From the NCBI GenBank assembly GCA_040954595.2, contig CM082597.2:6907849-6971848 (forward strand): a stretch of 64,000 nucleotides of DNA. The letters run 5' to 3'. This DNA comes from Balanoglossus misakiensis. Its lineage: Eukaryota > Animalia > Hemichordata. A program made the translations under genes and the position numbers. Positions within the stretch are counted from its first letter, which is position 1. Each line of letters starts with the position of its first letter. Below are positions 721 through 44,771 of the stretch, one piece after another. The notes under the pieces were generated by a model. That model did no database searches. It had not been told where the DNA came from and saw only the letters and a list, made by a program, of their open reading frames with translations.

Positions 721-1088
721 TGCCTCAGGTACACGATGGCAAATATCCAACTACGAACTCAACGATTTTCGGTCGAGTGTTAGTAAGTGGTCGCATCACG
801 TATGTTAGATATAAAGAATATGTCAAATAAATGATGTTTATCTCTTTGACGTATTGTAAAACCGTACTGCAGATAAGAGTGTCTAGATAAGTGTCGTGAT
901 AAAGCCAAATAATAAATCTTAATTTACCGTTTGGATTTTTACCAGTGCTTTTCATATACCACCACATGTGAATGCTGATATTATGGCTAGAGATTTAATG
1001 AAAAATGTTAATGAAAAAAAATGTCTGAAACGTCATGCTATGTTGGAGTGAACACTGTTTTCTCTCCGTTGTCAGGAATTTAATTACC

Positions 1089-8370: not shown

Positions 8371-9767
8371 TTTTTTTTTGTAAACTTCTTTGTTGACACC
8401 CGCATCGTGGTGCCCAGTTGGGTATGCTATAGTGACTCATAAGCCGAAGTACTCGGCTTGAGTTTCAAGCAAGTTTGAATTGTGTAACTTTCTTTTACTT
8501 TGTAACATGAAACTGTGTCACTTTAATAAATTATTATCTATTTATGAATGTAAAAATAAAAAAAATGTATGTATGTATGTATGAACTCCCCCACTAACTT
8601 TAAGTAAACTTGGAACATGACGGGATGGAACTCCTCATTAATTATGCACATATATAATTGTAGGCTAACCGATAGGGCTAGAAGGCTGCTGTTTGTTGGA
8701 CATGAACTCCTTTGTCACAAAATTGCTCCGGCATAACATTTTGGGTGCCCTTTGGATGACCTTTAATGAGAACACTGCGCAACACAACGCAAATCGAAAT
8801 TACTGGTATGGGTTCGGCAGTTTCAAACTTCGTGCACACCTACATAAATCCTGTATTGTTTAACGAAGATATTGCGTGGGTGAGAGCTACGGTACCATAC
8901 CTGTGTTGCCAGGTACAATTTGAAATTTGACCCCTTCTTATCAGGCTACATTGTTCATGTATCTCGATGCATGATTGAGTGCGTACCAAAAACTTATGTT
9001 GACAAGAAGGTGGTGTGGGTTACGCGCAAAGCACCATGGGGGTTCCAACATGAGCCTGAGCACAGACAAAGAGTGGCCTGAGTAACCCGAAAATAGGTAT
9101 GAATCACTTCAAAAATCAGTAACTTGTTAGGAGTGGCATTGAGGTAAACACGCACACCAAACAATTAAAAACTGGCATACCTATCTGAAGGCCATGACCA
9201 CATTACTGTGAACTGGATAATTCCTCATGCCTCCTTAGTAAGCCTGAATTTTCTTTCGCGGAATTTCGGAAGATTGGTGGTGTCTAAAAGAGTTTAGCTT
9301 TTATATTACAATTTATGATACAGGATGCACCTTAGTAAGCTAAAATGCCCTCGGTGCGCGCGTAACAGAAAAACAGAGGCAGATGTAGAAAATCTGAGAT
9401 ATTTTGAAGGTTGCTACCACGTCTTGTAAAAGCTCGAAATTAGCCACAAACCTCTCAGCGCTTTTTGCCAAATTGAGTAAAACTGGATTTTTCGAGTGTC
9501 CGCGAAAATGCATGTCACTTGACCACTGTTCACATCATGTGTTCTAGGCATGATCAGGCTCCCCTAGTATGCCTGGTTCAAATCTTTAATGTAAAAATTC
9601 GGGGCTTGGGACTTAGTTTTTTTTTTTTTTTTTATTTTTTTTTTTATTTTTTTTTTTATTAATTTTTATAGGAATCAAATGACACAACAAAAACAACACA
9701 AAAACACAAAACAACAAGCGAGGTCAATAAAGATTAACGCTTACAAAGATAGAAAAAGTAAGATTTG

Positions 9768-12700
9768 TTACAACTCACAATGCAAAAGTACTGCCCATTT
9801 TGTTTCATACTGATTTACAGTTTTTCTATATTTTGCAAGTTTACCTTCAACACAGCGGACTTCTCTAACTTTATCCATAAATAAACGAAAGTTCAAAGGG
9901 TGGGAATTAAATCTGGCTGTATAGATAAAGTATTTTCCCAATAATAAAAGGTGATTAAAAAGAATAGAATCTTTTGAATTGTACAAATCTGAGCCAAGAA
10001 CTACTGTTTGGCAATTCAACTGGAGTGTATGCTTCGAATTGTGTGACCAAAATAACTCAAATTTTTTCCAAAAATTGTTAGCTTTTGTACATTCCCAGAA
10101 TAAGTGCTCCATTGTTTCGGTATTCTTGCAATGATCGCATAGATCATTAGGGCGTAGTTTTCTAATATGTAGAAACTTATTAGTCGCAATTATCCTGTGC
10201 AAAATTTTGTACTGGAAATTACGCATTTTCTCTTCTATTGTTGTGTTTTTAATCCTGCTCCAAATAATTTTCCAATCAGGGGAAATATTATACAACCTTT
10301 CAATGTAGGCTTGACTTCTGGGAGGTACAAATTTGCTTCTAACTAATTTTTCATAAATCGTTTTGACTGACCCATCACCCAGCGGGCAGTCTTGGTCATT
10401 TACAGATGCATGTCTGGTTCCATAAATTTTTTTGAAGGTTTCTGGAATAGCGTGGATGAGGCTATGATATTTGAGAAACTGACTCTTGTCAATGTCATAT
10501 TTTGTTGAAAACTTGTCCCAGGAGAGGTATTTACCTTTTTCACATAGATCAGAAATATACATAACACCCTTGTCATACCAATCTTTAAAAAATACAGAAT
10601 AATTATCAATTAAAATGTTCTTATTATTCCAGATGGTTTCGTTATGACTACTATCATCTGTTACATCTCTCAAATCTTTATAATATTTCAACATATCTCT
10701 GTAGTATTGAGGCATAGTAACAGGCAAAAAATTAATGTCAAAGTTACACTGTGATAAAAGATCTAATCCCCCAATTTTCCCAAAGTAGTACATTGGAATC
10801 TTCGTCCATTGATGATTACAGTTTTTAAACGTGCAAGCAGTGACAATTTAAGAGCTTTGTCAAGCAGTTCACAATCGACCATTCCCAGGCCGCCCTTATC
10901 AAGATTACCAATCAAAGTATTACGTTTTATCTTATGGGGCTTTCCATTCCAAATAAAGTCAAAAAGATATTTATTTGCATACGTTAAAACAATCTTTGGA
11001 ACGGAAACGGCGCTCATCATATAAGTTAACTTTGAGGCTCCGTGATATCTTGCCAACAGAATTTTCCCTCTCAAAGTGAGGTTTCGAGACTTCCAAACAT
11101 TTAAATTGTTCTTCATTTTTCGAAGCTTCTGATTGAAGTTTAAATCCTCTATGTCGTTTTTATTGTAACCTAAGTAAACCCCTAGGAGTTTGATGGGAGC
11201 GTTTGTTGGCCTGATACCACAGTCATCAAAGGACTCTGACGTATATTTTCCAAGAAGCATCATTTCTGTTTTATCACAATTCATACTCAAACCTGAACAA
11301 TATTTAAATTTTTCAATTAAATGAATGACATTTTTAAGTGATTGTCTGTTATGTAATAAAAAAGTAGTGTCATCTGCAAACAGTGAGATGCGTTCTTCAC
11401 TCCCGTCAGGGAGAAGTAAACCAGAAATATTTTTATCTTTACGTACTGCAGTAGCTAACAACTCAATTGCAATAACAAAAAGTGCGGTTGACAAGGGGCA
11501 TCCTTGTCTTACTCCTCTTGAGACCTTAAACCAGCCTGTGGAGTAACCATTATTTAATACACAGCTTGTTATATTGTTATAGAAAAGTTTAACCCATTTT
11601 TTCAAATTAGGACCAAAATTGTAAAGATCGAGAGCTTTGTCAATCAGCGCCCATTCCAAAGAATCAAAAGCTTTCTCATAATCTAGGAAAAGGAGAATTC
11701 CTTTCCTATTCTTGATATTAAAATAATGGATGATATCAGAAATAAGACGGATGTTATCTGTAATTTTACGACCTTTGATGAAAGCAGTTTGATTTTCATG
11801 AATTATTGTTGGTAAAACCTTTTCCAAACGCTTTGCTATACATTTAGCTGCTGTCTTATAGTCAGAATTCAAAAGCGAGACTGGTCTCCAGTTTTTTATA
11901 TAATTCTGATCTTTTCCGGGTTTCGGTAAAAGGGTGATAACAGCCTGTTTCTGTGTGGATGTCATTTCTCCTATACGGAATGCTTCATTTAGGACCCCAA
12001 CCAAAATATCCCCAATATCTTCCCAAAAAGCAATATAAAATTCGGCTGGTAGTCCATCACTCCCAGGAGTTTTATTCTTGGGTGCTGACTTCAGTACTTC
12101 AAGAACTTCAGAATTTGTGAAAAGGCCTTCAAGAGAGTTGCTTTTTTCATCAGACAATTTTTTGACATCTGAATCGTTAAAGAACAAATCAACCGTTTCC
12201 GCATCAAAAGCGGAGGTATACAGATGTTCATAGTAGCTCTTGATTTCTTTGAGTATCTCTTTGTCATCCGTTATGGGCACGTCATTATCAGACTTTAAAG
12301 CTGAAATTAACTTTTTGTCATGGTTCCGCTTCTCTAAATTTAAAAAATACTTGGAGCTTTTCTCACCTTCGGAATACCACTTGATTCTTGATCTTACCAT
12401 AACCCCTTTCACTTCATTTTCCCACAACTGTTCTAATTTTAATTTAACTTTTTCATATTCAAGGACAACGTCGTCATTCAAATCATTGTCTAGACTTTTT
12501 TCTAATTCACAAAGTGACTTCCATAAGTTCTCTTCAAGTATTTTGTTCTCTCTCTTTTTATGCTTTGAATAATTTATAGACCTATCTTTTATTTTGTATT
12601 TTAAATATTCCCAAGTATTTTGTACCGACCCTGCGTCAGACCGATTAACATTTTCATGTATTAGATCTTTAATCATTTCCCTGTACTTTTCATCCTGTAG

Positions 12701-13465
12701 GAGACTTAAATTCAGTTTCCAAAACCCTGGGCCCCGATCAGCATGCTGCTCATAATTGTATGTTAGGGTAACGGCACTGTGGTCAGTATTAACTGAAGGG
12801 GTGATTTTGCAGTCCTTTATGTTTCTTTCTAAATTTCTGGAAACTAGAAAATAATCCAAGCGTGACGCAGAATTGCCACGTCTCCAGGTATACCTGTACT
12901 CATAAGGATGTAATTTGCGATAAACGTCGACCACAGCTAAATTTTTCATCAAGTTGAAAATTTCTGCTCTTGCTCGACTGTGGACATCAGTGGCGCACCC
13001 TTTTCTGTCAATAGACGGGTCAATCACAACATTAAAGTCGCCACCAATAATGGTTGGTAGGAAGGGAAAATTCTGTTGTAAAAGTTGCAAGATGCGTTCA
13101 AAAAAGGCAATTTGTTCCACATCTCTGTTTGGTGCGTAAATGTTAACAAGAACTAAGCGTTGGCCATTTATATCAACTTCGGCCATTATATAACGACCTT
13201 CGCGGTCACTGAGAACTTTGTACAATTGGTAGGGTACAGATTTTTGAATAAGAATAGCTGCTCCACAGCTGTGGTGTGAGCCGTGCGAGAAGAGCACGTC
13301 GCCACCCCATTCTTGTTTCCAGGTGAACTCATCATTTGCATAACTATAGGTTTCTTGGAGAAAGGCGATATGCGCTTTCTGCCGCCTTACGTAACGATAA
13401 ATACTTTTTCTTTTCGTACGGTTTCTAATACCTCGCACATTCAAAGAGACAAATTTCAACGACAT
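9768..13465 (-). CDS. LINE ORF2 (APE endonuclease + reverse transcriptase + C-terminal zf-RVT), split by one -1 frameshift near 10825
   Basis: SLNVRG, FLQET, NIYAPN, GGDFN, RLDYFL, TDH (endonuclease); PGSDG, WRPVSLLN, DYEKAFDS, GVRQGCPLS, LFADD (RT); CDHC..ETMEHLFWEC lies in the downstream frame 9768..10793. Confidence 0.93.
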
Positions 13466-13649
13466 ACAAAAACAAACAAACACGAAAAAAAAGGACAGCA
13501 AAAATCCCTAAAACGTGGGGAAAACTGTGCCGTCAGGTGACAAAAAAAAAGAACATGGTCATCCAGAAGGTCTAAATATCCATAAACATTTTCAGAAAGT
13601 GTCTGTCAAAAGAGACATTCCAACAAGTTGTTTTTGCAATAAACAAGTA

Positions 13650-14498
13650 CTACTGATTTTTAGTATACCTTTTCCCGTCTATAAATAGACATCCGTTTTT
13701 GAACAGTACTTTTTTCTTGTCTTCGTAAGCCGCTTGCATGACTGGTTGGAGTTTCCGTTTACACTCAAGGTCGGCTTGACAGAGGTCTTGGGTGACGAAG
13801 ATCCCTGTTGTCTTCAAAGCTCTTCGGGCATTCGAAAATATTAACTGTCTTTGTGGTCGACATAATAGTTTTACAAGGATATGGCGTTGTTTTCCTGTTT
13901 TCTTCAATCCTGTACGATGAGCGTTCTCCAGTAGTGGGTTTTCAATACCGAATGATTGTTTCAGTATGGATTTGATAATCTCGACGCAGTCCTCTCCCTC
14001 TTGTTCTGTAATACCGCCAAAGCGGACACTGAGAGACCTACTGTACCGTTGCAGCTTTATATTTTCTTCTCTCAAACTTGAAAGCGTAGCCGTATTCAAT
14101 TTTAACGTTTCTTCTAGTGTTTCTATTTTCTTTTTACTGCAAGTTGCCTCTGATTTTAGGTCGTCTACCTCACCATGGAGGAATTGGCTTGATTTTTCCA
14201 GGTCTCCGCATTTTTCTTCTGCACATTTTACACGGCCAAGAAGGGAGTTTTGGTCAATGTGCATTTTATCAATTTTCTTCTCCAGTCGGGAAATTGCGTC
14301 TCGCATAAATACCTGAAAGTCAGTGGATACGCCGGTATTGTCTGTAGTTTTATCACCTTCAGTGGACTCTTCTCCGTCAGATTGACTATAGACTGGACTC
14401 GAGCGTGTTACGTAACGTGCCATGCCCTCTGCGTTCTTGTCGGTCCTGCCTCTGCCTCTTGACGAGTTTTTTGACGGCGTTTTTCTTCCTTTCGGCAT
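13650..14498 (-). CDS. LINE ORF1 (basic N-terminus, coiled coil, L1-type RNA-binding/CTD region)
   Basis: ATG at 14498 (MPKGRK..); heptad-rich coil, then RSLSVRFGGITE, ENAHRTG, RHILVKL and IFVTQDL motifs typical of L1/Tx1 ORF1. Confidence 0.88.
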   Translation of the reverse strand: MPKGRKTPSKNSSRGRGRTDKNAEGMARYVTRSSPVYSQSDGEESTEGDKTTDNTGVSTDFQVFMRDAISRLEKKIDKMHIDQNSLLGRVKCAEEKCGDLEKSSQFLHGEVDDLKSEATCSKKKIETLEETLKLNTATLSSLREENIKLQRYSRSLSVRFGGITEQEGEDCVEIIKSILKQSFGIENPLLENAHRTGLKKTGKQRHILVKLLCRPQRQLIFSNARRALKTTGIFVTQDLCQADLECKRKLQPVMQAAYEDKKKVLFKNGCLFIDGKRYTKNQ

Positions 14499-14681
14499 TG
14501 AGAATGCGAATGAGAGTTTCACAGTAGTTAGAATATCACTTATCTTTTAAGTAGCAGCCGTTTTGGTAGGTGTTGGAGGTTTCCTTTTCGACAAATTTCA
14601 TGAGCTTCTGGAGACCAAGTGAACGGCACTACAACATGGCTAACAGCAACCACGGGACTTAGTTAATTAATAGTGAATAGA

Positions 14682-17600
14682 AATGGATAGACAACTACTA
14701 TTCCAGAAATTGTTTATTTGTTTGTCGCATTCTTAAATCATGTTTTTAAACAAAGCAACCACATTTGCTAAATTGTCACCACACTAAATGAGGCAGTATT
14801 ATTTTGCACACTGAGAGACCTTTATGCACGCATTGGATTTATTCTTTATATCACAAATACGTCAAAAAGAGCGACTTTGTCACTTCAATTGCCGCATTTG
14901 TCTTGAACTGATAACCATGGCTTGTAAGTGGAACCCCACGCAGTTAAGCCTTTTATGGCTTCGCGTTAGTTTACACTGATTTTTAACTTAGTCGTAATTT
15001 CTTTGTGGATGGTCGTATTATGGGCATCACATGGCCACATATCTTAAGTACATGTCTCAAGTACAGAATATCCAACAAAGTTAATTAACAGCAACGCATT
15101 TAACCAATTTTGCATTCAAGAGTCGCGTCACCATGAGTCATTATTTTCTGTATAGCGAACCCTATAGAATTAAGTTTTAACCTCGAAGTCAAGCATGTCC
15201 AGAAATCTCAATTATCGTCTGTCTAATGTCCCTGTAAATAAATTGTAATATTGGCATTGTTCTTTTACTGATAACCATGGATTGTAAGAGGAACCCCACG
15301 CAGTTAAGCCTTTTATGGCTTCGCGTTAGTTTACACCAATTTTTAACTTGGTCGTAATTTTTTTTTTTGTGGATGGTCGTATTATGGGCATCACATGACC
15401 ACATGCCTCAGGTACACGATGGCAAATATCCAACTACGAACTCAACGATTTTCGGTCGAGTGTTAGTAAGTGGTCGCATCACGTATGTTAGATATAAAGA
15501 ATATGTCAAATAAATGCTGTTTATCTCTTTGACGTATTGTAAAACCGTACTGCAGATAAGAGTGTCTAGATAAGTGTCGTGATAAAGCCAAATAATAAAT
15601 CTTAATTTACCGTTTGGATTTTTACCAGTGCTTTTCATATACCACCACATGTGAATGCTGATATTATGGCTAGAGATTTAATGAAAAATGTTAATGAAAA
15701 AAAATGTCTGAAACGTCATGCTATGTTTTAGTGAACACTGTTTTCTCTCCGTTGTCAGGAATTTAATTACCATGTGTGCCTCACGAGTGTCTCTAGAAAC
15801 GTCTACAGCGAAGCCTGCATCACCAGGTTAGTACATCTAAACACTAACAAAACTGACGAGTCACCTATTATTACAACGACGTATTTCAACCAAAGAAAGA
15901 ACTACATAGCATTTTACTTTCCTTATCTACAACCATATCCGCACTGACAAACAGATGCTACAGTACATTACATGGGATATGAGGGCTTGTCACAAGCTAT
16001 ATGAATACTAATATGGACTAAATAATTCTCTAACTTCCAAAAAAGAAAAAAAAAGTTTGGAGACAATGTCTCCATATGCGTTTAACAATTTTTTCAACAA
16101 TGTTTAAAATGTTATGATCAATTTTCCCTCTCTATCCCCACAAGAATATTTATGTTTGAAACAATGTACATATTACGTTGAACATTTAAATAGTTTACTT
16201 TTAGTTAATGTTCATAATGCTGCTATTTACATTTCTACAGAAGTTGATCGCACGTTCTTGCTGATTGGTAGGAGGTGGCAACAGGAAAAGTTCGAAGATT
16301 GCACATCGTTTGTCAACAAACAGTTCGCAATTCAACTGCGAAACTCTGGATATCAAGTAATGTCAACTGTACTGGAAGCAAACGATGAGGAACTCAAAGA
16401 TGCCGCAGATAACAAAGTGTCTTTGATAACGCCAACACCAAAACGCCACTCGTACAAAATTAAAAAGGAAGATTACCTGACGTATCCAGACAGATACTAC
16501 AGAGTATTGAAAAAATATAAAAACGCAGTGTCATATATAGTAGGGCATGTTAATGCAACTGGTTATGACACAGTAGAGGAGGCCTGTATTATCCGAGATA
16601 GGTACTTCAAAAGAGCGACTCTTGTTGTATTTATTCATTTCATATCAGAAATTACAGGCCAGGGAAGGGAAAACATTATAGGGGAGAAAGACATACACCA
16701 GTTTGCGAAAGAGGCGGCCTTAGTCGTCGCTGTTGGTCCCTCTTTGAAGAAGTACTATTCGAATTTGTTGAAACCTAACAAAATAGTGTGCTACTTGCCT
16801 GTCCCTGATAGACGGTACCTTGATTTACAGGTAACAGCCCCACCAAATGGCGGTACCATTGAGATCCTGACAATGGAAAATCTCTCTGATAAAAAGCAGT
16901 GTGATTCTTCTGACCATACAGCTCGAGCAATCCAGGAAGTGATACGACGCCATAATAAAATGGATCGTACAGAGCCAATGTGGTTCGTATGTGATACCGG
17001 TGAAAACGATACACCTACGTGTGACACCCAAGAAAGGTGTGTCCCCAAACCCAAAATCCATTCTCTTCGCAACTATTCAGATTGTCTTCCATTTATTTTT
17101 GAACGAAGTGCTCATCTCATCGATGTCAGCGAAAAAGTGTTTTCCGTGACGGGTCTCAATGCTATTGCTGCTGGTCTACCTGTACTTTTTAAGTTCAAAT
17201 CAAGTATTGCCGATTTTGTGAAGACAGAAACCTTTCTGGAAGAACATGGAGGCATTGTGGTAATGGCAACTGTAGAAGATGATGTGAATGCTGTAAATAC
17301 GTTGGCAGACAGAATTAACGAGTTTGTCTTGGAAGATAAAGTTGCGACCAGTTTCCAACGTGCAAAAAATTTAAAAGAAGGTCTCATAAAATCCATTGAT
17401 GAGGGCAAAATTAAGAAGTCTTACGAAGATATACTCAAATGTTTAAACCGTAAAGCCCGATGTGACAATGGTTTTGTGAACCATTATCACGAGCATAAAG
17501 ATATCTAAACGTACACTTATTTACGTGAACATTACTACAACAAATATTGAAAATATGTTGTAACAGCTTGTATTTGGACAAATATGTACAATTAATAACA

Positions 17601-18972
17601 GTTTTGTCGTCAGCACACTAAACGTATGAAATGAGAATATATTTCTCCACACTTCATTTCAAGTCTAAGTCACCGGAAGTAACCTTTTCTTTAAAAAAAA
17701 GAGATTCACAGTCTGCCTGTAGTTTGATCGCTGTGCCACCCACTAGCTCAATCGAACAATAACCAAGATACTGGCAATGTCCATTTCAATTTAGGACTTT
17801 ACAAGATGACCTCTTTATCGTAGATTTGTTTGAAATTTTTACTAACATTGTCAGCCTGAGATTAATTATATTATGCCCATTTTACTCACGTGTGTTGTAA
17901 TTTTTGGGAATTCATGCTTCACATGTTGTACTGTTTTGCCTATGACAATAAAAGAAAAACGGATAATAATACTTTGAACACAGTCACAAGGTGTTTTCTT
18001 CATATAAGTGTATGATGGTTTGTGTGAACATATATATGTGATCAAATACCAAATACTCAATACAGGTAATAGTCTCTTACCGTCCGCTTTCTAGAACAAT
18101 GTGTCTACCATTGCAGCATATAAGTAAACAAAGATTGTGCGAACGTTAAGTATTTCTGTGACAGTGGCTTTCCCAAAACGCCTAGAATTTATCTATGTAG
18201 TACGTTGCTCGTTGAAATCACGTTGGAGTATGCCGATAGCAAAGTTCCGAACATAACAGCAAACTTTGAGTAATTATGTAACAGAACAAATAGAAAATAT
18301 CTAAAAATAAAGCCGGTAACCGTTTAATGGTTTGTAATACAAAGTTTAAAAGCCTGCATTTCAAAGTCCGTCAGTATTTCCCAACAAGGTTGAATTTTCC
18401 CATTGAGTTAAGCGGCAGAGTTCTCCAGCTGACCCTTTACAACCGCGACGTCATTTGTTTGCAATACCGCAGTATGTCGTCATGGGACGATTAAAAGCCA
18501 ACACGTACAACCACACTGGAGCAACAAAGGAAACATGTCCAACGTATTTTGGTGTCTACAAACTTGAACAGTGTCGTACCAGGTTAGTTGACCACTAAAG
18601 ATCGTAAGGTAATTCCAACGAGGGGTGGGGTAGGGGTGGGGGTGGGGGTGGGGTGGGTTTTGTGTGCATTTGATTTGAATGTGTGCTTGATATATGCTAT
18701 TGGGAAGTTCTTACAAAAATCAATCTATCCATAGTTTTCTTTGTTTGAAAACAACGAATTAACAAGTTGAAATTTAGAGAAAGTGTTGATCTCATTTAAT
18801 TTTAAAGGGACAAAGTCTCTCTCTCGCTGCCCCTTTTCCATTAATTATGTTTGATGCAAGACAATGTTAATGTTAACACGTGTATGAACGTTCAATCACA
18901 CACAACTTCCTTCCCGCTTGTATACAACCAAAGTTTAACATGTGTGTAGCTGCCATGCAGCATGTATGTAAC
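14682..18972 (+). repeat. Segmental duplication, copy B
   Basis: Same sequence as 1..4281 with scattered SNPs and small indels; the ORF track shows the same ORF set repeated. Confidence 0.97.
15772..17508 (+). CDS. GT-B fold / GT4-conflict-like glycosyltransferase-domain protein, copy B; join(15772..15826,16241..17449/17470 spliced onward, or ..17508)
   Basis: Same exon structure as copy A, open reading frame intact; 4 amino-acid differences in the large exon (S>C, R>H, L>H, Y>N). Confidence 0.78.
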
Positions 18973-21384
18973 CAACGTTGCCGATATCTACAAGCGTGTG
19001 TAGGTTTCAAACCTACACGCACCTTTTTGCAAAAATAGCGTCAATGACACTTGGTGCTCTCTCATTGTGTAGTGCATGATGAGCAGCATGTTTGGAGAAC
19101 AGTGGTTTGGTATATGGGTGAAAGGAACAATTTGCAAACACCAAGGTGAAATGCTGAACTGTTTTGCTCATGTAATATTGAATGAAGCTTGATAAGGTGG
19201 GTGCTTAGCAGGGGGAAACCAACTTGTCAAGGGCTCTAATAACTGTTTTAAATGGCCCGCACACACAAATGGCCTCAAACAAATATATTGTCATTTCCCT
19301 CTCAGATTTTGTATCTTATGTTATACAGATGGAATTCATTGTGTTTTGTCATATCAAATTGCACCAGTGCAAGCTATGAGAAATGTCCATGTGCTTCTGC
19401 CTATAAGACGCACATTTTCTGAAAGTTTATTGCTTCGTCTCCACTTTAATGCAAAAATTAGACGTAGGACCCTTGTACTTTTAAAGTGAGAGTGATTTTA
19501 AAATGTCTTGTTTTTTTAGCATGCTTATAAAGATCGGTTCGCCATTTGGTCAAATATGCGTCGATTTTTTCTGTTTTCACTTCTTTATTTCCGTTACATC
19601 GAGACAAAAAAATGGTGATAATTTTACAGTAATTTACCACTTCTGTGTGACTTAAACAGCAAGTTTTCGTGAGTACTGCTGAGAGTACCCGAGGGGGTGT
19701 GTCACTGTGTAAGTTGACGTCGGCAACGATCACCTGACGTCAAAGGACAGCGTAGACAATGAGAACACAAAAGGTGTGATTGGGCTTAAGCAGCAGTCCA
19801 AAGTCCTTCTCCTTTTATGTCAATGACCTAATCCATTCAAAATATGCAAATTAGGAAAAGACGCATATGCATTCTTTGCGTCCCCAGAGACACACACAAG
19901 AAATCAAGCGAGTGCGGCCACTAGCCTGAAGAGCTGAATTCAATGCATGGCCTAAGGTGGTGAGTGTCACGCGCAAAGCACCATGGGAGGTCCAACATGA
20001 GTAAGCGTTCATTTGACTTCTGGCTGGCCTTGAGTACACACGTCAGCAGTGTCTGGACGATCACTTTCTTTGAACCTTTTAAGGAGAATATTTTCGATTT
20101 TTGTGACACCGGACTTTTAGTTGTGCACAGATTGGTACCAAGTTCGTTCTCTGTGATATTTTCGGCTCGCTTGACGTTTTTAACCGTCTATTCGGATCGA
20201 TGTACTGGCCGCGGGGCTATGCGCATACGTCGACGGGGCGTAGCTGCATGATGGCCGCCGAGCGTGAAAAGCTTTACCGTAGGCCAACATACCGTTGCAG
20301 CTTTTCTATTCGTTCTATTACAACTCAGTTTTCTTCTCAAATATGTACAGTATTTTTTAAACCCCACTCCAAACCGCAAATAAACGAAAACCAGAAGACT
20401 TTTTTTATTTTACGCACAATCAGTACAAGAAACCTACATGCATGTTTGTAAATATGTGGTTAGTTACGCAAGTCAAACGGCGCGCGTCCTTAACTACCAC
20501 ATAAAAATCGTCTGTATTAAAGTGCTGGAAAGAAAATTTTACTGCCGCTGGAATGGTACCGAAGTGAGCGTAATGTCGTTGGTCTTTTTCAGGAACGTGT
20601 TGACTGTAATAGGGTTATTCTAAAATTTAGTATTACAGTAAGTTGCGATCACCATGGCCTTCACATACGGAGAGGGATGTGTTAGGCGCCTATGAGATAG
20701 TACAGTTTCTAAATACGGTGAAATCGATAAAATAAAATGGGCGCTTTGGGGCTCCCATGCAATTTCACACACATTACATATTAGTCTTTCAAAATATACA
20801 CATAATAAAGCTGTGCGCTCGCTGTTTAGTCTGCCTGCTGACTTCAAACTACGTCGTCCGAGTACGATCGTTGGCAACAGTACGCCATGATGCCAGCTGA
20901 CATACGGAGTGAAAAACGCGACTCGGAACAAAATCGATAGTACTTTCCTCACAGAACGATGCTAACATACATGAACTTATAAAAATTCGATTGGTTTTTC
21001 GTTCGAACGGAGTTTCCTTTACATAACCTACGAGAACATAAGTCGATTGCGCACAGAAAGCTACACGCGTGACACTGCTGGGTCGACCATGTTTTGCTGA
21101 CTAAGAGCCGGGTAAACCGGAAGTGACATCGTGACCTTCACCACCTTGCCTCGTGATGTTCATGGTACATGGGGGTGATGATCAATGAACAGAACAGCGG
21201 TCCACTTTCATGTGTTGCAAAACAAACGACGATGTTACATAGCAGTGCTTCACAAGTTTGACTAATTTGTATGAAAATCGTCTCGCCAAACACAACTTTT
21301 TTTCTCGCATTTGCGATTTGGCGAGCGGGTAGCGAAAACACTGCTGGCTAATCCGTTCCGATTTCTGTCACTGTTCCAATTCTT

Positions 21385-21985
21385 CCAATGTTTTCAGATA
21401 CAGTAAAAGATAATTGGCGTCAAGACTGGTGGGGGGAAATTTCTAGCACAAGCCGTTTACAAATGTTTTGTCAATTAAAGAATAGCTCATACCTTGAAAA
21501 TTATTTATTTAATGTTAAAATTAACAAACATAGAAAGGCCCTTTCACAGATACGATGTTCCGGCCACAAGCTTTCTATTGAAACTGGCCGCAGCAAAGGT
21601 CTGGACAGGTCTGAAAGGTTATGTGAAATTTGTAATACATGTATCGGTGAAGACGAATATAATTTTCTTTTTGAATGTACGCTTTATCAAAATCTTAGGG
21701 AGAAATATTTACCAAAGTGTTTTACAAGATATCATTATCAAGCAAATATGGTCAAACTTTTCACTTCAGGTGATACCAATATTATAAAACACCTGGCAAA
21801 ATATGTATATCAAGCATTCGAACTGCGGAAAAAAGCACTAAATTTGTAATAGCATGTAATACTCTGTCTAATGTATAGTTTTGTGGTGCAATCAAATCAA
21901 GTTCTTTACCTCTGTATCATTTTGATGTACTAAATGCAATGGGCCGGTGGCCTTTATGCAAATAAATATTATTATTATTATTATT
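21385..21985 (+). mobile_element. 5'-truncated LINE 3' fragment (CR1/L2-group-like) with (TTA)n tail
   Basis: ORF 21388..21849: RCSGHKLSIETGR..RLCEIC..EDEYNFLFECTLY; AATAAA followed by (TTA)n at ~21961..21985. Confidence 0.8.
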
Positions 21986-22591
21986 CTATTCACAACAGTG
22001 ACCAAATGAAACTAAACTATTGACTTGATTCGAGGAAATTAAATGAGTGTTGTTTGTGGAGCGGAAAATTTCACAATTAACCTCGTCATATCGTGCAGGT
22101 TGGCAGGATGACAACCTCTCCAAAATACAGAGGTCCAGTTTCTTCTCATCACACGTGTATAATATGAGAGTAAAAACTCGCGAAAAATGAATAAATGGTA
22201 GAGACTGATTATTCATTTTGGCGAGTGTTTTCATTCTCGTGTCTATAAGCAGGATGGACGATGTGTGTTGTTGAACATTGATTCACTATATATCCACATG
22301 TAGAATAACATAAACAGTGTCTTGTATCAAACATAATTAATGGAAAAAGGGCAGTGAGAGAGAGACTTTGTCCCTTTAATCATGCTACTTCGTTGTTATC
22401 GCCTACGTTTTCAGTAAAGACCTCAATTTTATTCCAGACTGCGAACTATGGATAACGAGTATGCCTACAGCAAACAGAAAAGTAGTAAGTAACCATGTTT
22501 GATATTGACCATAGGTTAAATGATCAAAATATTCATATCCAGGGTATACCAAGCGGCGATTCAGCATATTCAGTGATCAGAATCTGAAATA

Positions 22592-23061
22592 AGTTATACG
22601 AAGAAAGAGTAGTCTAGAGTAGAACAACCTAAGGCTACTTTGTTTAATGGTACATGTATATTGTTATGTTTAGCCAGTTCGCTCAGGATTTTCTATACAC
22701 AGGGTAAATCAGACAACCTGGGACAGCACTGGCTTGTGAAATAAACAACGATTTAATGCTCACCACTCAAAACTCTCTACAAACGATTCGGAGGGAGGCA
22801 GCGGATAACGGTGTGTTGTCCGATGACTCTAAAACGGCTGATTGGTTATGTCTTTAGACCTGTTTTTCTCTGGTTCTATTGTTCGATTGCGTACGAGGCA
22901 GCCATGTTTGTCCGGTCACAGCCAGCTTACCCATAATTCCAGAGTTTATACATGCAAGTAACTGGGTGCCCCAGCGCCATCTATGGCAAAGCCTGACTAA
23001 TCTTTCTTTTATATGGTGTTGATAAGCAATAGGTGCAATGGTCTGCACGGTCCACATCACA
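22592..23061 (-). repeat. Gypsy 3' LTR
   Basis: Direct repeat of 28370..28831. Confidence 0.92.
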
Positions 23062-23205
23062 CTGCCCCTCGTTAAAAAGAGTTATCTGTCCCCGGATAAC
23101 ATTACAACAAGCAACTACAAACAGTAGAACAAGTAATACACAACAAAACTCTGGTAGGTCCAAAAATTGTCAACAAGGCAAATACCGCCTGATCAGGCAT
23201 GTCCT

Positions 23206-26200
23206 TTACAGCTCCTCAACGAGACGTCTTGGAGGTTTCCGTGGTCTTCTACTTCGACGCATGCCTTCGGCGTACACAGCACTCCCGTCTTCTTCCAAAG
23301 CATGGGCAAGTTTTGAGTCCTCTTCAACGGACAAATCAATGCCAGAATCCTCCAAGGCGTTGTTAGCATCTGGTTGCAGATGTGCAGTCGTGGGCCCATC
23401 CAGTGCGGACTCTGAAATGCTGCCACTAATATCAGCTTCATCAGCAGGCAATTCCTCCATGCAGACATCAGGTCCTCTGCTCTCATTAGGCTGTAGCCAG
23501 TCAGCTCTCCAGACACCTGTGTACTTCAACAGTCGGTCCCTATGGACGATCTTGGGTTTGGCACGAGGCCCTCTCTGGATTCTATACACAAGATTGTTTA
23601 TGCAGTCAACAACACCATATGGGCCCTCCCATGGTTTTGAGAGCTTCGGCTAAAGGCCTTTCTTACGCTGTGGGTTATATAACCAGACACCGTCGCCTCG
23701 TTGAAGCTTTGGTTGCCCTGCCCTGGTATCATATCGCCGCTTCACTCTGTCACTGCTCCTCTTGATGTTGTCTCTGGCAAATGAGTGAACATTGTGCATT
23801 CGGTCTTGCAATACTCCGACATACACACCATGAGACTCAGTTTCCTCCTCTGGGCGACCATATACCAGATCTACTGGAAGTTTCATCTCCCTCCCCAGCA
23901 TAATCATGGACGGGGTGAAACCGGTAGTCTCATGAACTGCAGTTCTGTAGCTCATCAGGACGAGAGGCAGATGTTCATCCCAAATTTCCTGATGGTCCTC
24001 AACAAATATCGCTAACTGATTCTCAATGGTCCTGTTGTAACGTTCCACCCTTCCGTGTGACAGGGGGTGCAGTGGGGTCGTCCTCGTCTTTTGTATACCA
24101 AGAAGCCTGCACATTTGCTGGAACACAGCTGCCTCGAAGTTTCGGCCTTGGTCAGAGTGTAATTCCAGAGGAACACCAAAACGACTCACAAACTCATCAA
24201 CTACCGTCTTTGCTACTGTTACTGCATCCTGATTTGGTATAGCAAAGGCTTCCGGCCACTTGCTGAAGTAGTCCGTGGCGATGAGAATGAACCGATTCCC
24301 TCTTGGTGTCTCAGGAAGGGGACCAAGGACATCGATGGCCAACCTTTCCATGGGCACACCCACGTTGTATATGCCGAGTGGTGCGTACTTCTTATGATAT
24401 GGCTCTTTCCGTCTGGCGCACTGCTCACACTTCTTGCACCAGAGTTCCACAGACTGTCGACACCCTACCCAGTAAAATCTATTTCTCACGTGAGACAACA
24501 TCTTCTTGACAGACCAATGCCCTCCTGTACGGGTATCGTGCAACTGCTCAAGAACTTCTTGCTGTCTGGCTTTGGGCAGTATCAGTTGTCTCTGGATAAT
24601 ACCACCCTCTGGCTTCTCCCATCGGCGATAGAGTACACCATGGGATAGTTCAAGAGAATCCCATTGCGACCAGTATGCTTTGGTGGTGGGGCCATATGGA
24701 GACACTTCACTCCATTTGGGACGATCTCTTGAGTTATCCTTCCACAACAGGATCGGCCTGATATCAGGATCCTCTAACTGGGCCTCACAAAGGTCTGATT
24801 TCTTCTCCTTGTCAGCATCTACCTTCCTGGCCACAGGGCTCCCACCCCCACCTCACTGTTTCTCAGGCAGCTGTCTCAGCGACCCCTCATTCTGTTGTTC
24901 ACGTTCTTCTTGCCTATCACAATATTTGCATGAGTTTCCACATGGTCTGCGAGACAGGCCGTCAGCATTGAGATGGCTCCGTCCTGCCCTATGCTGGATA
25001 AGGAAGTAATACTCCTGGAGTTTCTGGAGCCATCTAGCTGTCTGTTCCTCTAGGCTGCGAAACTTCATAAGCCATTGTAGCGCTGAGTGGTCTGTTCTCA
25101 CAGTAAACCTCCTGCCATAGAGATAGTGGTGGAAATGGTCGACCGCCTTAACCACAGCCAGTAGTTCTTTGCAAGTAACACAGTATCGCTCTCAGGCCCA
25201 TGCAGCACACTGCTGTAGACAGCACACGTTCTTCTCCATCCTGCTGTTGTTGGGAGAGGACTGCCCCTATTGCACCCTCACTGGCATCTGTGTCGACAAT
25301 CAGGGGTCCATCCGGCTGAGGAAAACCAAGAACTGGAGCGGACGTCAACTTCTGCTTCAAGACATTAAATGCGGTCTCGCAATCCACAGTCCAAGAAAAC
25401 CTGTGACCCTTCTGTGTGAGTCGATGCAGTGGTCTAGCTATTTCAGCAAACCTGCGGTCATATGAACAAAACCCAAGGAATGCTCGGACTTCCTTAACAT
25501 TGGATGGAGTTGGCCATGTGGACACTGCCTCCGTCTTCTCCACATCAGTCGTCACACCAGCTTCGCTTACAACATGTCCTAGGAATGTCACTTGACGTCT
25601 GAACAGCTCACACTTCTTGGGACTGAGCTTCAGCCTAGCTTTCCGCAAACGGTTCATGACCTGTTTCAAGTGACTCATCTCCCCATCGAAGCTCTTCCCG
25701 TGCACGATGATGTCATCAAGATAGACCAAAACCACAGTCCATAGCAGACCTCTCAGCACCTGCTCCATCAACCTCTCAAACGTGGCAGGCGCGTTACATA
25801 ATCCGGAAGGCATCACAACGAACTGCCACAAACCACTTCCTGCGGTAAAACTGGTCTTCTCCCGATCTTCCTCAGCCACTGACCTGCCAGTACCCGCTCT
25901 TAAGATCCAGGGTGGAAAACCAGGAGGAGCCCGCTAGAGAATCAAGAGTTGCGTCAATTCTGGGCAGTGGGTATGAGTCCTTCCGGGTAACCTCGTTTAA
26001 CCTCCTATAGTCCACACAGAAACGCGTTGATCCGTCTGTCTTTCTAACCAACACGATAGGCGATGCCCACAGGCTCTTTGACAGCTCTACAACTCCCTCT
26101 GCATACATCTTGTCAATCTCTGACAAGGCTTCAGCTTGTTTCACGGGTGGCAGTCTCCTTGGCCACTGTCTGATAGGTGCTGCGTTTCCTGTGTGTATTG

Positions 26201-28267
26201 TGTGCTCAACGATATCTGTTTTACCAAGGTCCTTACTGCCCTTGGAGAACACATCCTGAAATTCTATCAGAAATTTCCTCAAAGAATCACATTGTTGTCG
26301 AGAAAGTCCATTGCAGCTTCTGTGATATAGATCCTCTAAATAGTCTGGCATCCTAGATTGGTTCCTGTCAGCAACAGGATCCTCCACCGGCACAGACCCT
26401 CCATCTGGTGTTTCCACACTGCAGACAGACTCAACAGATCCCAATGTATTGCCTTTCCTCAGTGTTCTCCTTTGCTGAGTTACATTGATCAGCCGCACTG
26501 GAATGCAATCACCACTGGTATCAACCAGAGTCTTCCCAACAACAACACCCTTACAGCTGAAACTCTTCCCAGGTTCTACCAATCCCCAGCCACTGTGCCG
26601 CTTGGGTCCGGTCATTCGGCCTTGTATGATTGCCTCGCTCATAGGTGGAATAGTGACATTCCTATCGACCACCACTCTGCAGCAAGTTGAATGGGCAGTA
26701 ATCCATGTCCCTTCACAGGTGATGTACCACCGAAGGCTGTCTTTATGTAGACCTTGTCTGTAAGTGTGATTGTTGGCGGTAACTTTCTCTGCCGCATAAG
26801 TACATCAGTCTTTATGATAGTCGCGTCAGACCCGGTGTCCAGCACAATCTTACAGGGAACGCCATCAACAAAACCGTGTACTATGGGCGTAAGGTCAGGT
26901 CCAGACACATGGCCTGCGCGAATGATAACATCAGGGGCAATGTCCTTATCAATAATGCCAGCTGAGTTCTGCCCCGCGAACCCAGCTCCTACTCGTTTCC
27001 CGAAACAGTTGTTGGCACCGCTGAATCACGCTTTTCCTTTGGGCAGTCTCTAGCAAAGTGGCCCACCTGGTCACAATTCCAGCACTTCTTGTCCTTCGAG
27101 GGCTGGTTCTTTCTACGCACTGGTCCACTGGGTCTAGCCTCCAGCTTGTCCATTACCTTTTGGAGCATCTGGCTAATGTGTCCAAATAACTGGCCGGTTT
27201 CATCACGATCTGCTGCCACATTGGAATCACTTTTGTCAGGGGTGCAGGTCCTTCGTACGAGGTCATCACTGTGGGTATTGCGTCCCCTAGCCTTACTTGC
27301 AATCAAAAAGGACTGACTCCAATGCCAACTCTAATGCTCTCCTCAGATTTTTCTGTTTGGCTTGTCTCAGGCGTAGCCGCATATCGTCGTCATTCACCGC
27401 ATCAACAAACTGGTCGCACGCCAGGTCATCCTGTAATTCGCTAGACATGGTCGGATATGCCAATCTTACCAATCGCTCAATGTCACCAGCCAATTCAGGT
27501 AGACTTTCCCCCTTGCGTTTCACCCTATTCTTAAAACGGACACGGGAGAGGTCAGTCTGGTGCGCCGTACCATATCTAGCCGACAATGCCTACTTAAAAC
27601 AGTAAGGGCAGGTCCTTTAAGATTAGATGCCAGATACAGTGCTTGCTGGTGTTCATTCCAACCATTCATCTGTGCCACCAGCTCGAACTGCGCTTGTGGT
27701 CGAACCATCGAACGCTGTTGGCCTCTGAAGTGGTTTGCTTGCATTATTAAAGGAGCTGCAAAGTGCTGATTCAGCCTGGCAAATTGGAGTACCCGCCGGC
27801 CTTGGGGCAGAAATGGCCAAAGGGTTTGACTTTGAAATGAACTGGGGACTGCCACTAGAGGGCGGCATCACTACTGGTCTTGGCATGCACTGGGGGCTAC
27901 CACTAGAGGGCGGCATCACCAATGGGGTAGATGTGTGTTGCATGGCACGTCCATATTTCCCCTGGGACTCAGGATCCATTGCAGGCTGAGGCCCTTTAAC
28001 GTCAAATGTTTCCTCCAACCGACACATTCTTTTCTCAACCCTCTCCTGATTAAAGGCGACATCCTGCCTTAGCTTTAATTGTTCATCACTCATTCTCTTC
28101 ATCTGATCTCTCATTTCTTGTACTGTAGCTGTCACTGCAACCATGTTTTTCTCCGTCTTTTCAACTCTTGCATTTGTGGCTTCATGTCGCTGTATTACTT
28201 CGCTCATACCTCTACTCATTTCATGTTGTGATGTTAACGCTTCCCACATCAGCTGGCTGTATGTCAC
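23206..28267 (-). pseudogene. Gypsy gag-pol, broken into about 9 ORF fragments
   Basis: Consecutive - strand ORFs 27653..28267, 27293..27586, 26989..27306, 26639..26908, 25872..26675, 25148..25879, 24853..25155, 23650..24834 and 23206..23589 carry successive gag/PR/RT/RH/IN motifs. Confidence 0.92.
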
Positions 28268-28369
28268 CCTCTGTCAATGTGACCTCTGGAAGCAACAACT
28301 GTGTGGCGTCACTTGTTTCTCCCATACCAGAATCCACAGCGGGTTTGTCAAAACCACCAGCCTGTCCCC

Positions 28370-28831
28370 TGTTATACGAAGAAACTAGAGTAGAACAACC
28401 TAAGGCTACTTTGTTTATGGTACATGTATATTGTTATGTTTATCCGGTTCGCTCAGGATTTTCTATACACAGGGTAAATCAGACAACCTGGGACAGCACT
28501 GGCTTGTGAAATAAACAACGATTTAATGCTCACCACTCAAAACTCTCTACAAACGATTCGGAGGGAGGCAGCGGATGACGGTGTGTTGTCCGATGACTCT
28601 AAAACGGCTGATTGGTTATGTCTTAAGACCTGTTTTTCTCTGGTTCTATTGTTCGATTGCGAACGAGGCAGCCATGTTTGTCCGGTCTCAGCCAGCCTAC
28701 CCATAATTCCAGAGTTTATACATGCAAGTAACTGGGTGCCCCAGCGCCATCTATGGCAAAGCCTGACTAATCTTTCTTTTATATGGTGTTGATAAGCAAT
28801 AGGTGCAATGGTCTGCACGGTCCGCATCACA
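28370..28831 (-). repeat. Gypsy 5' LTR
   Basis: TG..CA termini; about 9 substitutions and 2 indels relative to 22592..23061, counted by eye. Confidence 0.92.
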
Positions 28832-29121
28832 ATATATAGGCCTATATGGCGATATTTTTGGCAAAAAAGTAAGAAACAAAGTCACGCACTTGTACATCAT
28901 GTCAAAGAAATGTTACAAATAAGTAAGATTATAGATATGTGATGAATTAATTAAAAAAAAATGAAACGAACTTTCATTGCTTAAGTTAATTTTTTAAGAA
29001 TAATGGCGACAAATTTCTACATCAATATCATTCTTTGTCTACTTAATTAGCACAATCATACTAGTATATCTGAATATGAAATTAAATGTATACATGATTA
29101 TTGTGTGAATTTATTTGTTAG

Positions 29122-29499
29122 AACACGTAACTCTCCACACTGTTATCGATGGCATCAGTTATACCCAGGGATGTCAACAAGAATCGACCCGCAGTGATCA
29201 AATCGGAAAATTCACTTTTGATAATTGTGATGTGTCACTGGATGAGCGATATGGTACTCTGGTTGAAAATCGCCGAGTAGAGGATAGGCTTGAATTGGTA
29301 ATAGAATGTAAAGAATTGGAACAATTAGAAAACCTATGGAATGATGTGGAAAATGGTGACTTGACCAATGCAATGCAGAGACAAATAATCACCGAAGAAT
29401 TATTAAGAAAGATTTCAGCGAAATCGATAACACTGAACACGTTTATCAAGAAATGGGAGTATAAACGATGTTATATGGATCTGAAATATAATCTATCAG
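29122..29499 (+). CDS. Internal exon encoding a TRADD-N-like domain
   Basis: Acceptor ttatttgttag|aa and donor tcag|gtatgt; 378 bp, phase 1-1. RLELVIECKELEQLENLWNDVENGDLTNAMQRQIITEELLRKISAKSITLNTFIKKWEYKRCYMDL follows the invertebrate TRADD-N-like pattern (L.i.v.C..l..Le.LW..y.sG.L......lit.e.l......v.L...I...ey..C...l). Confidence 0.75.
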
Positions 29500-29728
29500 G
29501 TATGTAAAATGAACAACGATTACCTTATACCGAGAATAAAATATACAGTATTTATAGTTACAACGGAAAGTTATTAGGAGTGAACTACAACATAAGGCCA
29601 TTAAAGATGTCATACACAAGTTCATCTTATATTTCAATTCTTGACGCTACGAACCTTTTAAATTACATATTACAATGTACTCTAACCATGAAACTGCATT
29701 TTCCTTTTGTGATTTTTAACTAAAATAG

Positions 29729-29835
29729 ACACCAGCTCAGAATCGTCTGTGGAAGGCAATAATGCTATCAGCAAAGAGAATCCAAAGGATGACAAATTTG
29801 CTAACCCGATTGTCGATACTTGCAAGAAGAATCCG
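29729..29835 (+). CDS. Short linker exon of the same gene (phase 1 to phase 0)
   Basis: aaaatag|acacc ... aatccg|gtaatt; open frame DTSSESSVEGNNAISKENPKDDKFANPIVDTCKKNP is phase-compatible with the exons on both sides. Confidence 0.6.
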
Positions 29836-29844
29836 GTAATTCTT

Positions 29845-30065
29845 TTTTTTTTTTACTTTTTTTTATTGGGATCGAACAACGGTGAACAAATACGTTATAC
29901 ACAGAAAATTACACATTTCCAATTCCAAATATACGGTCAAGCAGTTACATAAGGTATTAGGGGTGACCATTTGCCAATGTGTGCAGCAATTTTGGCCTTA
30001 GCTCTCGCAATTTTTTTCTTCAATTTTATATACATTTTTAAGAGAGATTTTGCAAGAGGAGTCTG
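29845..30065 (-). mobile_element. Short 3' fragment of an L1/Tx1-type LINE with poly(A)
   Basis: T-run plus tttatt at ~29843..29867; the - strand peptide KKIARAKAKIAAHIGKW resembles the L1 ORF2 C-terminus; flanked by GGTAATTCTT / GGTAATCTT. Confidence 0.6.
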
Positions 30066-37095: not shown

Positions 37096-37136
<41 letters not shown>

Positions 37137-38713: not shown

Positions 38714-38788
<75 letters not shown>

Positions 38789-44620: not shown

Positions 44621-44771
44621 TGAATTCTAACTTCAGCTTCATTGGCAACATTATATTCAGTTTGAGAGAATCTCGTGACGCCTTGCATTGTTGTCAATTA
44701 TGTGTAAATATGCGTTCAATTTTTGTCATTGTATTTTGTTGAATTTTGGAAAAGTGTGTCTCTAAGCATAG

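What the first reader, a model, noticed from the sequence alone, without database searches (positions are those of the whole stretch)
15772..29835. Candidate exon-shuffled immune gene: GT4-conflict-like domain joined to a TRADD-N-like domain
Seen: a start exon, a ~1.2-kb GT-B-like exon that can exit in phase 1 (donor after 17449 or 17470), and 11.7 kb downstream a clean 378-bp phase 1-1 exon with a TRADD-N-like pattern, then a phase-compatible linker exon. The intervening DNA is mostly transposon-derived. Known: GT4-like and TRADD-N-like domains occur as swappable effector/adaptor modules in expanded NLR/TPR/death-domain families of corals, lancelets and other invertebrates, and have bacterial conflict-system relatives; symmetric phase-1 exons are the classic unit of exon shuffling. 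Inference: this locus encodes a GT4-TRADD-N signalling protein of an uncharacterised innate-immune or cell-death system. Both candidate GT donors are weak, so the link is a hypothesis.
Basis: partly seen in the sequence, partly recalled or inferred. Interest (0 to 1): 0.85.

Follow-up and report, generated by a model that had tools for sequence, protein, structure and literature searches.

The report
Split GT4 and TRADD-N immune pair
Two immune-type domains that are usually joined in one protein likely sit here as two neighbouring genes of a probable acorn worm: a duplicated sugar-transferase-like gene that lacks the usual active-site motifs, and an adaptor gene with a likely start exon of its own, whose products are predicted to bind each other.

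Summary
Both domains are real: a GT4-conflict exon (Pfam E 2e-30) and a DEDD2-type TRADD-N exon. The proposed direct splice between them is poorly supported. Its donors are weak. This exon matches the N-terminus of the closest TRADD-N relative and lies about 400 nt from the TRADD-N exon once a Gypsy insertion is discounted. The GT4 gene is duplicated without TRADD-N (second copy at 1076-2821). Its closest relatives are two GT4-only Ptychodera flava proteins, apparently on the same scaffold as the separately annotated TRADD-N orthologue. The GT4 lacks the donor-binding motifs, and the TRADD-N lacks its signature serine. A structure model supports binding between the two (0.67, best control 0.00) but does not show it. 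Fused GT4-TRADD-N proteins of hemichordates are already published (Kaur 2021), and this scan noted motif-less GT4/TRADD-N arrays elsewhere in this genome. What may be new is a conserved split form. No RNA tested the splicing.

The parts
15759..15826 (+). GT4 gene copy 2: start-codon exon (ATG 15772, 13-nt leader, phase-1 donor); needs an unseen non-coding exon upstream
   Evidence: sequence; acceptor 100th and donor 99.4th percentile
16241..17508 (+). GT4 gene copy 2: GT4-conflict exon ending at its own stop (predicted 440-aa protein); donor-binding motifs absent
   Evidence: Pfam PF20706 E 2.3e-30; 49% identical to GT4-only P0001 and P0002; motif counts
1076..1143 (+). GT4 gene copy 1: start-codon exon (ATG 1089), identical to copy 2
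1554..2821 (+). GT4 gene copy 1: GT4-conflict exon with the same stop; 4 synonymous and 4 non-synonymous differences from copy 2
14682..18972 (+). Duplicated block (97.8% identical to 1-4282); ends 1.46 kb past the GT4 stop and includes AATAAA at 17947 and 18306
22438..22484 (+). Likely start-codon exon of the TRADD-N gene (10-nt leader, ATG 22448 in a good context, phase-1 GTAAGT donor)
   Evidence: acceptor 89th, donor 96th percentile; best of 520 GT sites for likeness to P0004 residues 1-14
22592..28831 (-). Gypsy LTR retrotransposon inside the intron before the TRADD-N exon; LTRs 453 of 462 aligned bases identical; coding region in several pieces; intron is 397 nt without it
29122..29499 (+). 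TRADD-N (DEDD2-type) exon, phase 1-1; signature uS turn reads D-R
   Evidence: 45% to P0004 over 125 aa, E 1e-27; 98 of 111 alignment members match PF20694; AlphaFold pLDDT 92.7
29729..29835 (+). Low-complexity linker exon, phase 1-0, same length as the matching P0004 segment
31357..31950 (+). Candidate next exon (phase 0-0, strong splice sites) with a zinc knuckle, likely from a LINE ORF1 relic; its use is unproven
9622..14654 (-). L1/Tx1-like LINE with an 11-bp target-site duplication, 1.1 kb upstream of the copy-2 start exon

Best explanation
The locus likely holds two neighbouring genes rather than one fused gene: a tandemly duplicated GT4-only gene that lacks the usual donor-binding motifs, and a TRADD-N adaptor gene with a likely start exon of its own, whose products are predicted to bind each other. 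SHOWN: both domains, the duplication, the GT4 stop, the extra ATG exon and its likeness to the orthologue's N-terminus, and the loss of the GT4 motifs and of the TRADD-N serine. INFERRED (about 0.7): the two are translated as separate proteins. INFERRED (about 0.5): they arose by fission of the fused hemichordate GT4-TRADD-N type. PREDICTED (about 0.5): an acidic patch on the N-terminal Rossmann lobe of GT4 holds the basic last helix of TRADD-N. Mechanism (inferred, about 0.35): the GT4 fold would act as a non-catalytic ligand sensor or cap that holds the TRADD-N protein off, and a microbial glycan or nucleotide-sugar, or a pathogen enzyme aimed at it, would release or reshape the adaptor and its C-terminal effector (a RING/B-box E3 ligase in the Ptychodera model; not found in this window).
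For: Separate genes: no good donor near the GT4 end in phase 1 (15th-81st percentile) or phase 2 (15th). Exon 22438-22484 ranks 1 of 520, score 22 against next 15, with Met at the same place as in P0004 and a 397-nt intron without the Gypsy element. All 4 members of this GT4 clade (2 window, 2 P. flava; support 100/100) end shortly after the last conserved helix, and GT4 was duplicated without TRADD-N separately in each species (99% here, 85% in P. flava). Conserved linkage: P0001, P0002 and P0004 share contig length 3,118,140 and near accessions XP_070549247, 258, 310/311. Fission: the GT4-only clade falls among hemichordate GT4s that carry a TRADD-N-like region, and the gene order matches the fused form. 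Loss of motifs: GG-x-ST, GRG and E/D-GFG-x4-E are in 19 of 19 coral-type proteins and 0 of 10 hemichordate ones; EX7E and the Arg/Lys pair bind the donor in GT4 enzymes (PMC8760489, passages). Binding: model score 0.67, best of 3 controls 0.00; runs share at least 78% of contacts; partner pLDDT at least 77. The mark was reached by 51 of 78 solved and 2 of 108 mismatched microbial pairs, 39 of 65 and 2 of 126 eukaryote pairs, and 7 of 44 blind neighbours. 11 of 13 predicted GT4 interface residues are identical in P. flava against about 50% overall (p 0.012).
Against: Nothing here tests splicing directly. Gene models in this family can be cut short (P0008 starts inside its TRADD-N), so P0004 being separate is soft evidence. 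The 10-nt leader of exon 22438 has no stop in frame, so an unseen phase-2 exon could still join it to GT4. Same-scaffold status in P. flava is read from contig length and accessions only; order and distance are unknown. The fused GT4s in the tree were mostly found through their TRADD-N (biased sample), deeper nodes are weak (87/81) and long branches meet. The predicted contact would also hold inside one fused chain, and it is untested for predicted chains; on the TRADD-N side only 6 of 11 interface residues match P0004. The 3' part of P0004 (residues 176-532) has no match in the window, so this TRADD-N gene may be truncated. Some active GT4s lack the first Glu (WsaF, PMC3898925 passages), so motif loss does not prove inactivity.
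Confidence: 0.55

Rival explanations
1. One fused GT4-TRADD-N gene, either by the first reader's direct splice or through exon 22438-22484 and an unseen phase-2 exon; the GT4 stop would be intron read-through and copy 1 an orphan 5' half.
For: The fused order is the published norm in hemichordates (PMC8195603 section 11 and Figure 4 data); 5 of the 26 longer TRADD-N hits scanned carry GT4-conflict; phases are compatible; GT4 tails after the last helix are unconserved; the predicted interface could be intramolecular.
Against: Weak donors; Met at the same place in two species; linker much shorter than in 4 of 4 measured fused proteins; both P. flava orthologues are annotated GT4-only.
Confidence: 0.17
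2. Two neighbouring remnants of an immune gene cluster that no longer work together; the TRADD-N gene here is decaying after transposon insertions.
For: Gypsy in its intron, LINE relics where the downstream exons should be, no RING/B-box exon; signature Ser lost; copy-2 GT4 has Leu to His at a strand position that is hydrophobic in the other 9 hemichordate rows; 7 of 44 blind neighbours pass the binding mark.
Against: TRADD-N exon, start exon and linker exon are open with good splice sites and 45% identity to the orthologue; the Ser is also replaced in P0004 (Gln), so its loss is old; predicted interface is enriched in conserved GT4 residues; copy differences lean to synonymous (4 of 8, p 0.07).
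Confidence: 0.18
3. One transcription unit makes both proteins: a shared non-coding first exon, or the GT4 start exon, is spliced either to the GT4 terminal exon or past it to the TRADD-N exons.
For: Both ATG exons have upstream acceptors; the GT4 start exon ends in phase 1 and fits the TRADD-N exon; no promoter could be placed for either.
Against: CpG-rich stretches at 20001-21500 could hold a separate promoter (weak; may be transposon DNA); no direct evidence.
Confidence: 0.1

Closest known systems
GT4 + TRADD-N (DEDD2 clade) proteins of cnidarians, cephalochordates and hemichordates (Kaur et al. 2021, PMC8195603; e.g. Saccoglossus XP_006814349, XP_006811676)
   Same: Same two domains in the same order; transposon-rich surroundings; predicted counter-invader role.
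   Different: Here likely two polypeptides; TRADD-N at the N-terminus of its protein; uS motif lost; only 23-27% identity to the fused GT4s. The paper proposes GT4 as a glycosylating effector, whereas the donor motifs are absent here.
Ptychodera flava XP_070549258.1 and XP_070549310/311.1 (GT4-only) with XP_070549247.1 (TRADD-N + RING/B-box)
   Same: Likely orthologues (49% and 45%; clades 100/100 and 98/99); same N-terminal and linker segments around TRADD-N; apparently one scaffold.
   Different: No RING/B-box exon found in the window; GT4 duplications are independent. These are uncharacterised gene models.
Coral GT4-conflict (PF20706) domains, e.g. Pocillopora verrucosa XP_066023497 cluster
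   Same: Same Pfam family and GT-B-type strand and helix pattern by alignment.
   Different: Coral-type proteins keep all three donor motifs (19 of 19); the window protein keeps none, only two conserved His positions.
Vertebrate TRADD N-terminal domain (PDB 1F3V, 1F2H)
   Same: RRM/ferredoxin-like alpha+beta fold; 1F3V has the highest query TM-score (0.46) of the Foldseek rows shown; 1F2H Z 5.1, rmsd 4.5, 101 aligned.
   Different: Matches are not significant and tie with unrelated ferredoxin-like folds; the Ser67-equivalent is Arg; no death domain found.

Membership tests
GT4-conflict (PF20706) | Profile score above the curated cut-off | tested here: met
   106.3 bits against 26, E 2.3e-30, profile positions 15-372 of 385
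GT4-conflict (PF20706) | GT-B fold with two Rossmann lobes | tested here: inconclusive
   AlphaFold with 4 sequences failed (pLDDT 38.9); profile hits to solved GT4 enzymes WbaZ-1 E 0.0026 and RfaG E 0.023; chain pLDDT 70-75 in the complex run, not searched against structures
Active retaining GT4 enzyme | EX7E donor-binding motif | tested here: not met
   K298-x7-N306, numbering from the codon at 16243; E/D-GFG-x4-E in 0 of 10 hemichordate and 19 of 19 coral-type rows; definition from PMC8760489
Active retaining GT4 enzyme | Arg/Lys pair and Gly-rich loop for the pyrophosphate | tested here: not met
   GRG and GG-x-ST absent in 10 of 10 hemichordate rows; Arg/Lys role; role of the Gly loop is recalled
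Active retaining GT4 enzyme | Measured sugar transfer | not testable with these tools
   needs purified protein
TRADD-N superfamily, DEDD2 clade (PF20694) | Profile score above cut-off | tested here: inconclusive
   14.2 bits against 23.7, E 0.038; but 98 of 111 alignment members match at E <= 0.001 and Atlas clusters score 0.93-0.94
TRADD-N superfamily, DEDD2 clade (PF20694) | RRM-like alpha+beta sandwich with a four-stranded sheet | tested here: met
   pLDDT 92.7, four strands with helices between; hits are RRM/ferredoxin-like and include TRADD, without singling TRADD out
TRADD-N superfamily, DEDD2 clade (PF20694) | uS motif (Ser, sometimes Cys) in the beta2-beta3 turn | tested here: not met
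   Arg here, Gln in P0004; Ser 92 and Cys 10 of 108 other rows with a residue; definition PMC8195603 section 8 passage. Filed as a divergent homologue on sequence and fold, not as a canonical member
Fused GT4-TRADD-N proteins (Kaur 2021) | Both domains in one polypeptide | tested here: inconclusive
   Sequence evidence favours two proteins; no transcripts available
Fused GT4-TRADD-N proteins (Kaur 2021) | C-terminal variable effector or repeat domain after TRADD-N | tested here: inconclusive
   None found in 29836-45800 except a zinc-knuckle candidate exon

The most novel reading that the evidence does not exclude
An ancestral GT4-TRADD-N immune protein split long ago in this acorn-worm lineage into two linked genes that still assemble in trans: a catalytically dead GT-B fold serves as a freely duplicating sensor subunit that docks on the last helix of a TRADD-N adaptor and gates its effector, an animal counterpart of paired sensor/executor immune genes.
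Probability: 0.3. Interest if true: 0.62.

Novelty: new variant of a known kind. Interest (0 to 1): 0.42.

Why it matters
GT4-TRADD-N proteins are widespread in marine invertebrates and, in the parts of the defining paper that I read, known from prediction only. A natural split pair gives two small soluble proteins and a predicted interface, which makes the proposed 'TRADD-N holds its neighbour domain' switch directly testable. Loss of donor motifs across the hemichordate GT4s sampled would also shift the model from 'enzyme that glycosylates invaders' to 'dead enzyme that senses'. If the gene is simply fused, it is one more member of a published family.

Tried and rejected
No whole genome is held for this window, so no paralogue count or synteny beyond the window. 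RNA search on 16200-17520: no RNA holder listed; no reads were laid. Metagenome scan with the GT4 protein: 92 pattern matches, none confirmed. Search for longer GT4 relatives (738-2105 aa) gave only P0003 at 28%; this is weak as evidence of absence. A profile search added no further orthologue of this GT4 clade; it scored only the 7996 best candidates. AlphaFold of GT4 failed. Foldseek gave no match at E <= 0.001 for the TRADD-N model, and VIA had no Z >= 8. No match to P0004 residues 176-265 or 262-450 in six frames. GC donors near the GT4 end: 4 sites, none consensus-like by eye. Rfam: 0 matches. Atlas on 31357-31950: leads under 0.9 only. Five GAF-repeat proteins among the TRADD-N hits were rejected as false positives. 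Haplotype false duplication considered: the sequence after 4282 and after 18972 does not reconverge, so a tandem duplication is preferred, not proven. Literature searches for a split or inactive form listed nothing on it; the library lacks most subscription papers.
Full report
SETTING. The window is animal DNA rich in transposons. All closest named relatives are from enteropneust hemichordates (Ptychodera flava, Saccoglossus kowalevskii, Glandiceps talaboti), so an acorn worm is inferred. No whole genome is held.

THE GT EXON. An ATG exon (15759-15826) splices in phase 1 to a 1268-nt exon (16241-17508) that runs to its own stop, giving a predicted 440-aa protein. It matches Pfam GT4-conflict at E 2.3e-30. 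A search at near length found 2 proteins among 4407 candidates, both GT4-only P. flava models of 424 and 422 aa at 49% identity over 96% of the query. The search of longer proteins found 1 among 4132, P0003, at 28%. The whole unit is present twice in the window: 1-4282 matches 14682-18972 at 97.8%, with identical ATG exons, the same stop, and no copy of the TRADD-N region behind copy 1. The copies differ by 4 synonymous and 4 non-synonymous changes (p 0.07 for purifying selection). The two P. flava proteins are 85% identical and form their own clade, so the GT4-only unit was duplicated separately in both species.

THE TRADD-N EXON. Exon 29122-29499 scores below the Pfam cut-off for TRADD-like_N (E 0.038). 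Its relatives settle the homology: 153 hits at E <= 0.001, 150 listed. I aligned the query with 110 of the 150, leaving out mostly the long proteins; 98 of these 111 rows match PF20694. AlphaFold gave pLDDT 92.7 with an RRM/ferredoxin-like fold. Structure searches list TRADD among non-significant, tied hits. The best hit by far is P. flava P0004 (45% over all 125 residues, E 1e-27), which carries the domain at residues 15-139, then a linker, then RING and B-box-like zinc fingers (RING by Pfam; B-box by eye). The next exon in the window (29729-29835, phase 1-0) aligns with P0004 140-175 without gaps (p 0.0023). Nothing in the window matches the rest of P0004.

THE PROPOSED LINK. A scan for phase-1 exons found 22438-22484: an acceptor, a 10-nt leader, an ATG with A at -3 and G at +4, and a GTAAGT donor. 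A 6240-nt Gypsy element lies in the following intron, which is 397 nt without it, like the 414- and 229-nt introns nearby. To read this exon as internal, an upstream exon must end in phase 2. The only phase-2 GT near the GT4 end is at the 15th percentile and cuts the last helix. In fused hemichordate proteins the distance from GT4 end to the conserved TRADD-N cysteine is 118, 120, 148 and 215 residues (4 of 6 measured; the anchor pattern failed in 2), against 65-72 for the proposed join. P0001, P0002 and P0004 share the contig length 3,118,140 and have close accessions, from which I infer one scaffold; they are annotated as separate genes. Against this reading: models in this family can be truncated (P0008), no RNA was available, and an unseen phase-2 exon cannot be excluded.

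ERODED MOTIFS. GT4 enzymes bind the donor with an EX7E motif and an Arg/Lys pair (PMC8760489, passages), though single positions can vary (PMC3898925, passages). In my alignment three donor-site motifs are present in 19 of 19 unnamed ENA proteins and in 0 of 10 hemichordate GT4s, including both window copies. One ENA cluster holds Pocillopora proteins, so I call this set coral-type. The window has K-x7-N at the EX7E position. The TRADD-N uS turn (PMC8195603 section 8 passage) reads D-R here and D-Q in P0004, against Ser or Cys in 102 of 108 other rows. I reached the motif result before reading two earlier notes on other pieces of this genome that report the same loss in fused arrays; they are AI notes, not independent proof.

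BINDING MODEL. GT4 residues 1-410 (numbering from 16243) folded with the TRADD-N exon scored 0.67, best of 3 controls 0.00; runs agree in at least 78% of contacts and partner pLDDT is at least 77. The mark was reached by 51 of 78 solved and 2 of 108 mismatched microbial pairs, by 39 of 65 and 2 of 126 eukaryote pairs, and by 7 of 44 blind neighbours. This supports binding and does not show it. My alignments were not used by the job, and I know of no solved GT4-TRADD-N complex (recalled, not searched). The interface joins GT4 residues 81-83, 112-119 and 142-153 (several acidic) to the basic last helix of TRADD-N (110-124). 11 of 13 GT4 interface residues are identical in each P. flava protein against about 50% overall (p 0.012); 6 of 11 TRADD-N residues match P0004, not above background. 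The same contact could exist within a fused chain, so it does not decide the gene structure.

MECHANISM. Kaur et al. propose that TRADD-N binds its flanking domains and holds them inactive until a signal reshapes the interface (section 12). The simplest extension, inferred and untested, is that the split GT4 keeps this contact in trans as a non-catalytic sensor or cap, and that ligand binding or attack by a pathogen frees the adaptor's effector. In a tree, the GT4-only clade (100/100) sits among hemichordate GT4s that carry TRADD-N-like regions, which fits fission, but sampling was biased and deep nodes are weak (5 of the 19 ENA rows were kept as outgroup).

WHAT IS KNOWN. PMC8195603 (abstract, sections 11, 12 and 13 whole, passages of 8 and 15; supplement 4 part 66; searches in supplements 4 and 6; supplement 13 not searched and 4 cut when stored) describes GT4 before TRADD-N in cnidarians, cephalochordates and hemichordates. 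It lists five Saccoglossus GT4+TRADD-N proteins in the part read and a 433-aa GT4-only one. In the passages shown for 'inactive' (12 of 31 places) GT4 was not called inactive. PMC12314368 (passages) reports GT1-domain gene expansion in Acropora. Searches (listings only, apart from the papers named) showed nothing on a split pair or dead GT4; that is a limited library.

VERDICT. The domains are confirmed, the direct fusion is unlikely (about 0.17 for any fused form), and the fused architecture would in any case be known. The most likely reading is a linked two-gene version with eroded motifs and a predicted interface: a new variant of a known kind, of moderate interest, and cheap to test.

Noticed in passing
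window 9622-14654 (-): Apparently full-length L1/Tx1-like LINE with poly-A tail and an 11-bp target-site duplication; ORF1 open, ORF2 in two overlapping frames near 10800.
   Followed up: partly
window 30080-32079 (+): LINE ORF1-like relic that seems split by a GT..AG stretch (30433-31356) holding a TTAA-flanked MITE near 30573-31072; looks like an intron inside a LINE ORF1, and its strong acceptor could capture the TRADD-N linker exon.
   Followed up: partly
window 32963-38828: Blocks repeated at 98-100% identity (32963-33869, 35537-36443, 37177-38061); very recent duplication or assembly artefact.
   Followed up: no
window 18312-18620 vs the matching stretch of copy 1: Island of 10% divergence inside a duplication that differs by 0-2.6% elsewhere; starts right after the AATAAA at 18306. 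Possible gene-conversion border.
   Followed up: partly
window 47060-48175 (+): Small gene with a weak LicD match (E 0.045); its flanks 42426-44620 and 50401-53187 are about 90% identical direct repeats.
   Followed up: no
window 55577-62325 (-): Multi-exon gene with an SH3 exon at 60474-60791 (E 3e-13); resembles UBASH3/Sts (name recalled, not tested).
   Followed up: partly
window 4390-7590: Element with long imperfect inverted arms built of roughly 160-bp repeats; probably a foldback DNA transposon.
   Followed up: no
window 40536-40958: CpG-rich 140-codon open frame without a Pfam match.
   Followed up: partly
proteins P0007 and P0028 (Saccoglossus); P0012 and P0155 (Glandiceps): Near-identical linker plus TRADD-N behind different N-termini (DED or GT4; none or GT4): signs of real domain swapping, or of split gene models, in this family.
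   Followed up: partly
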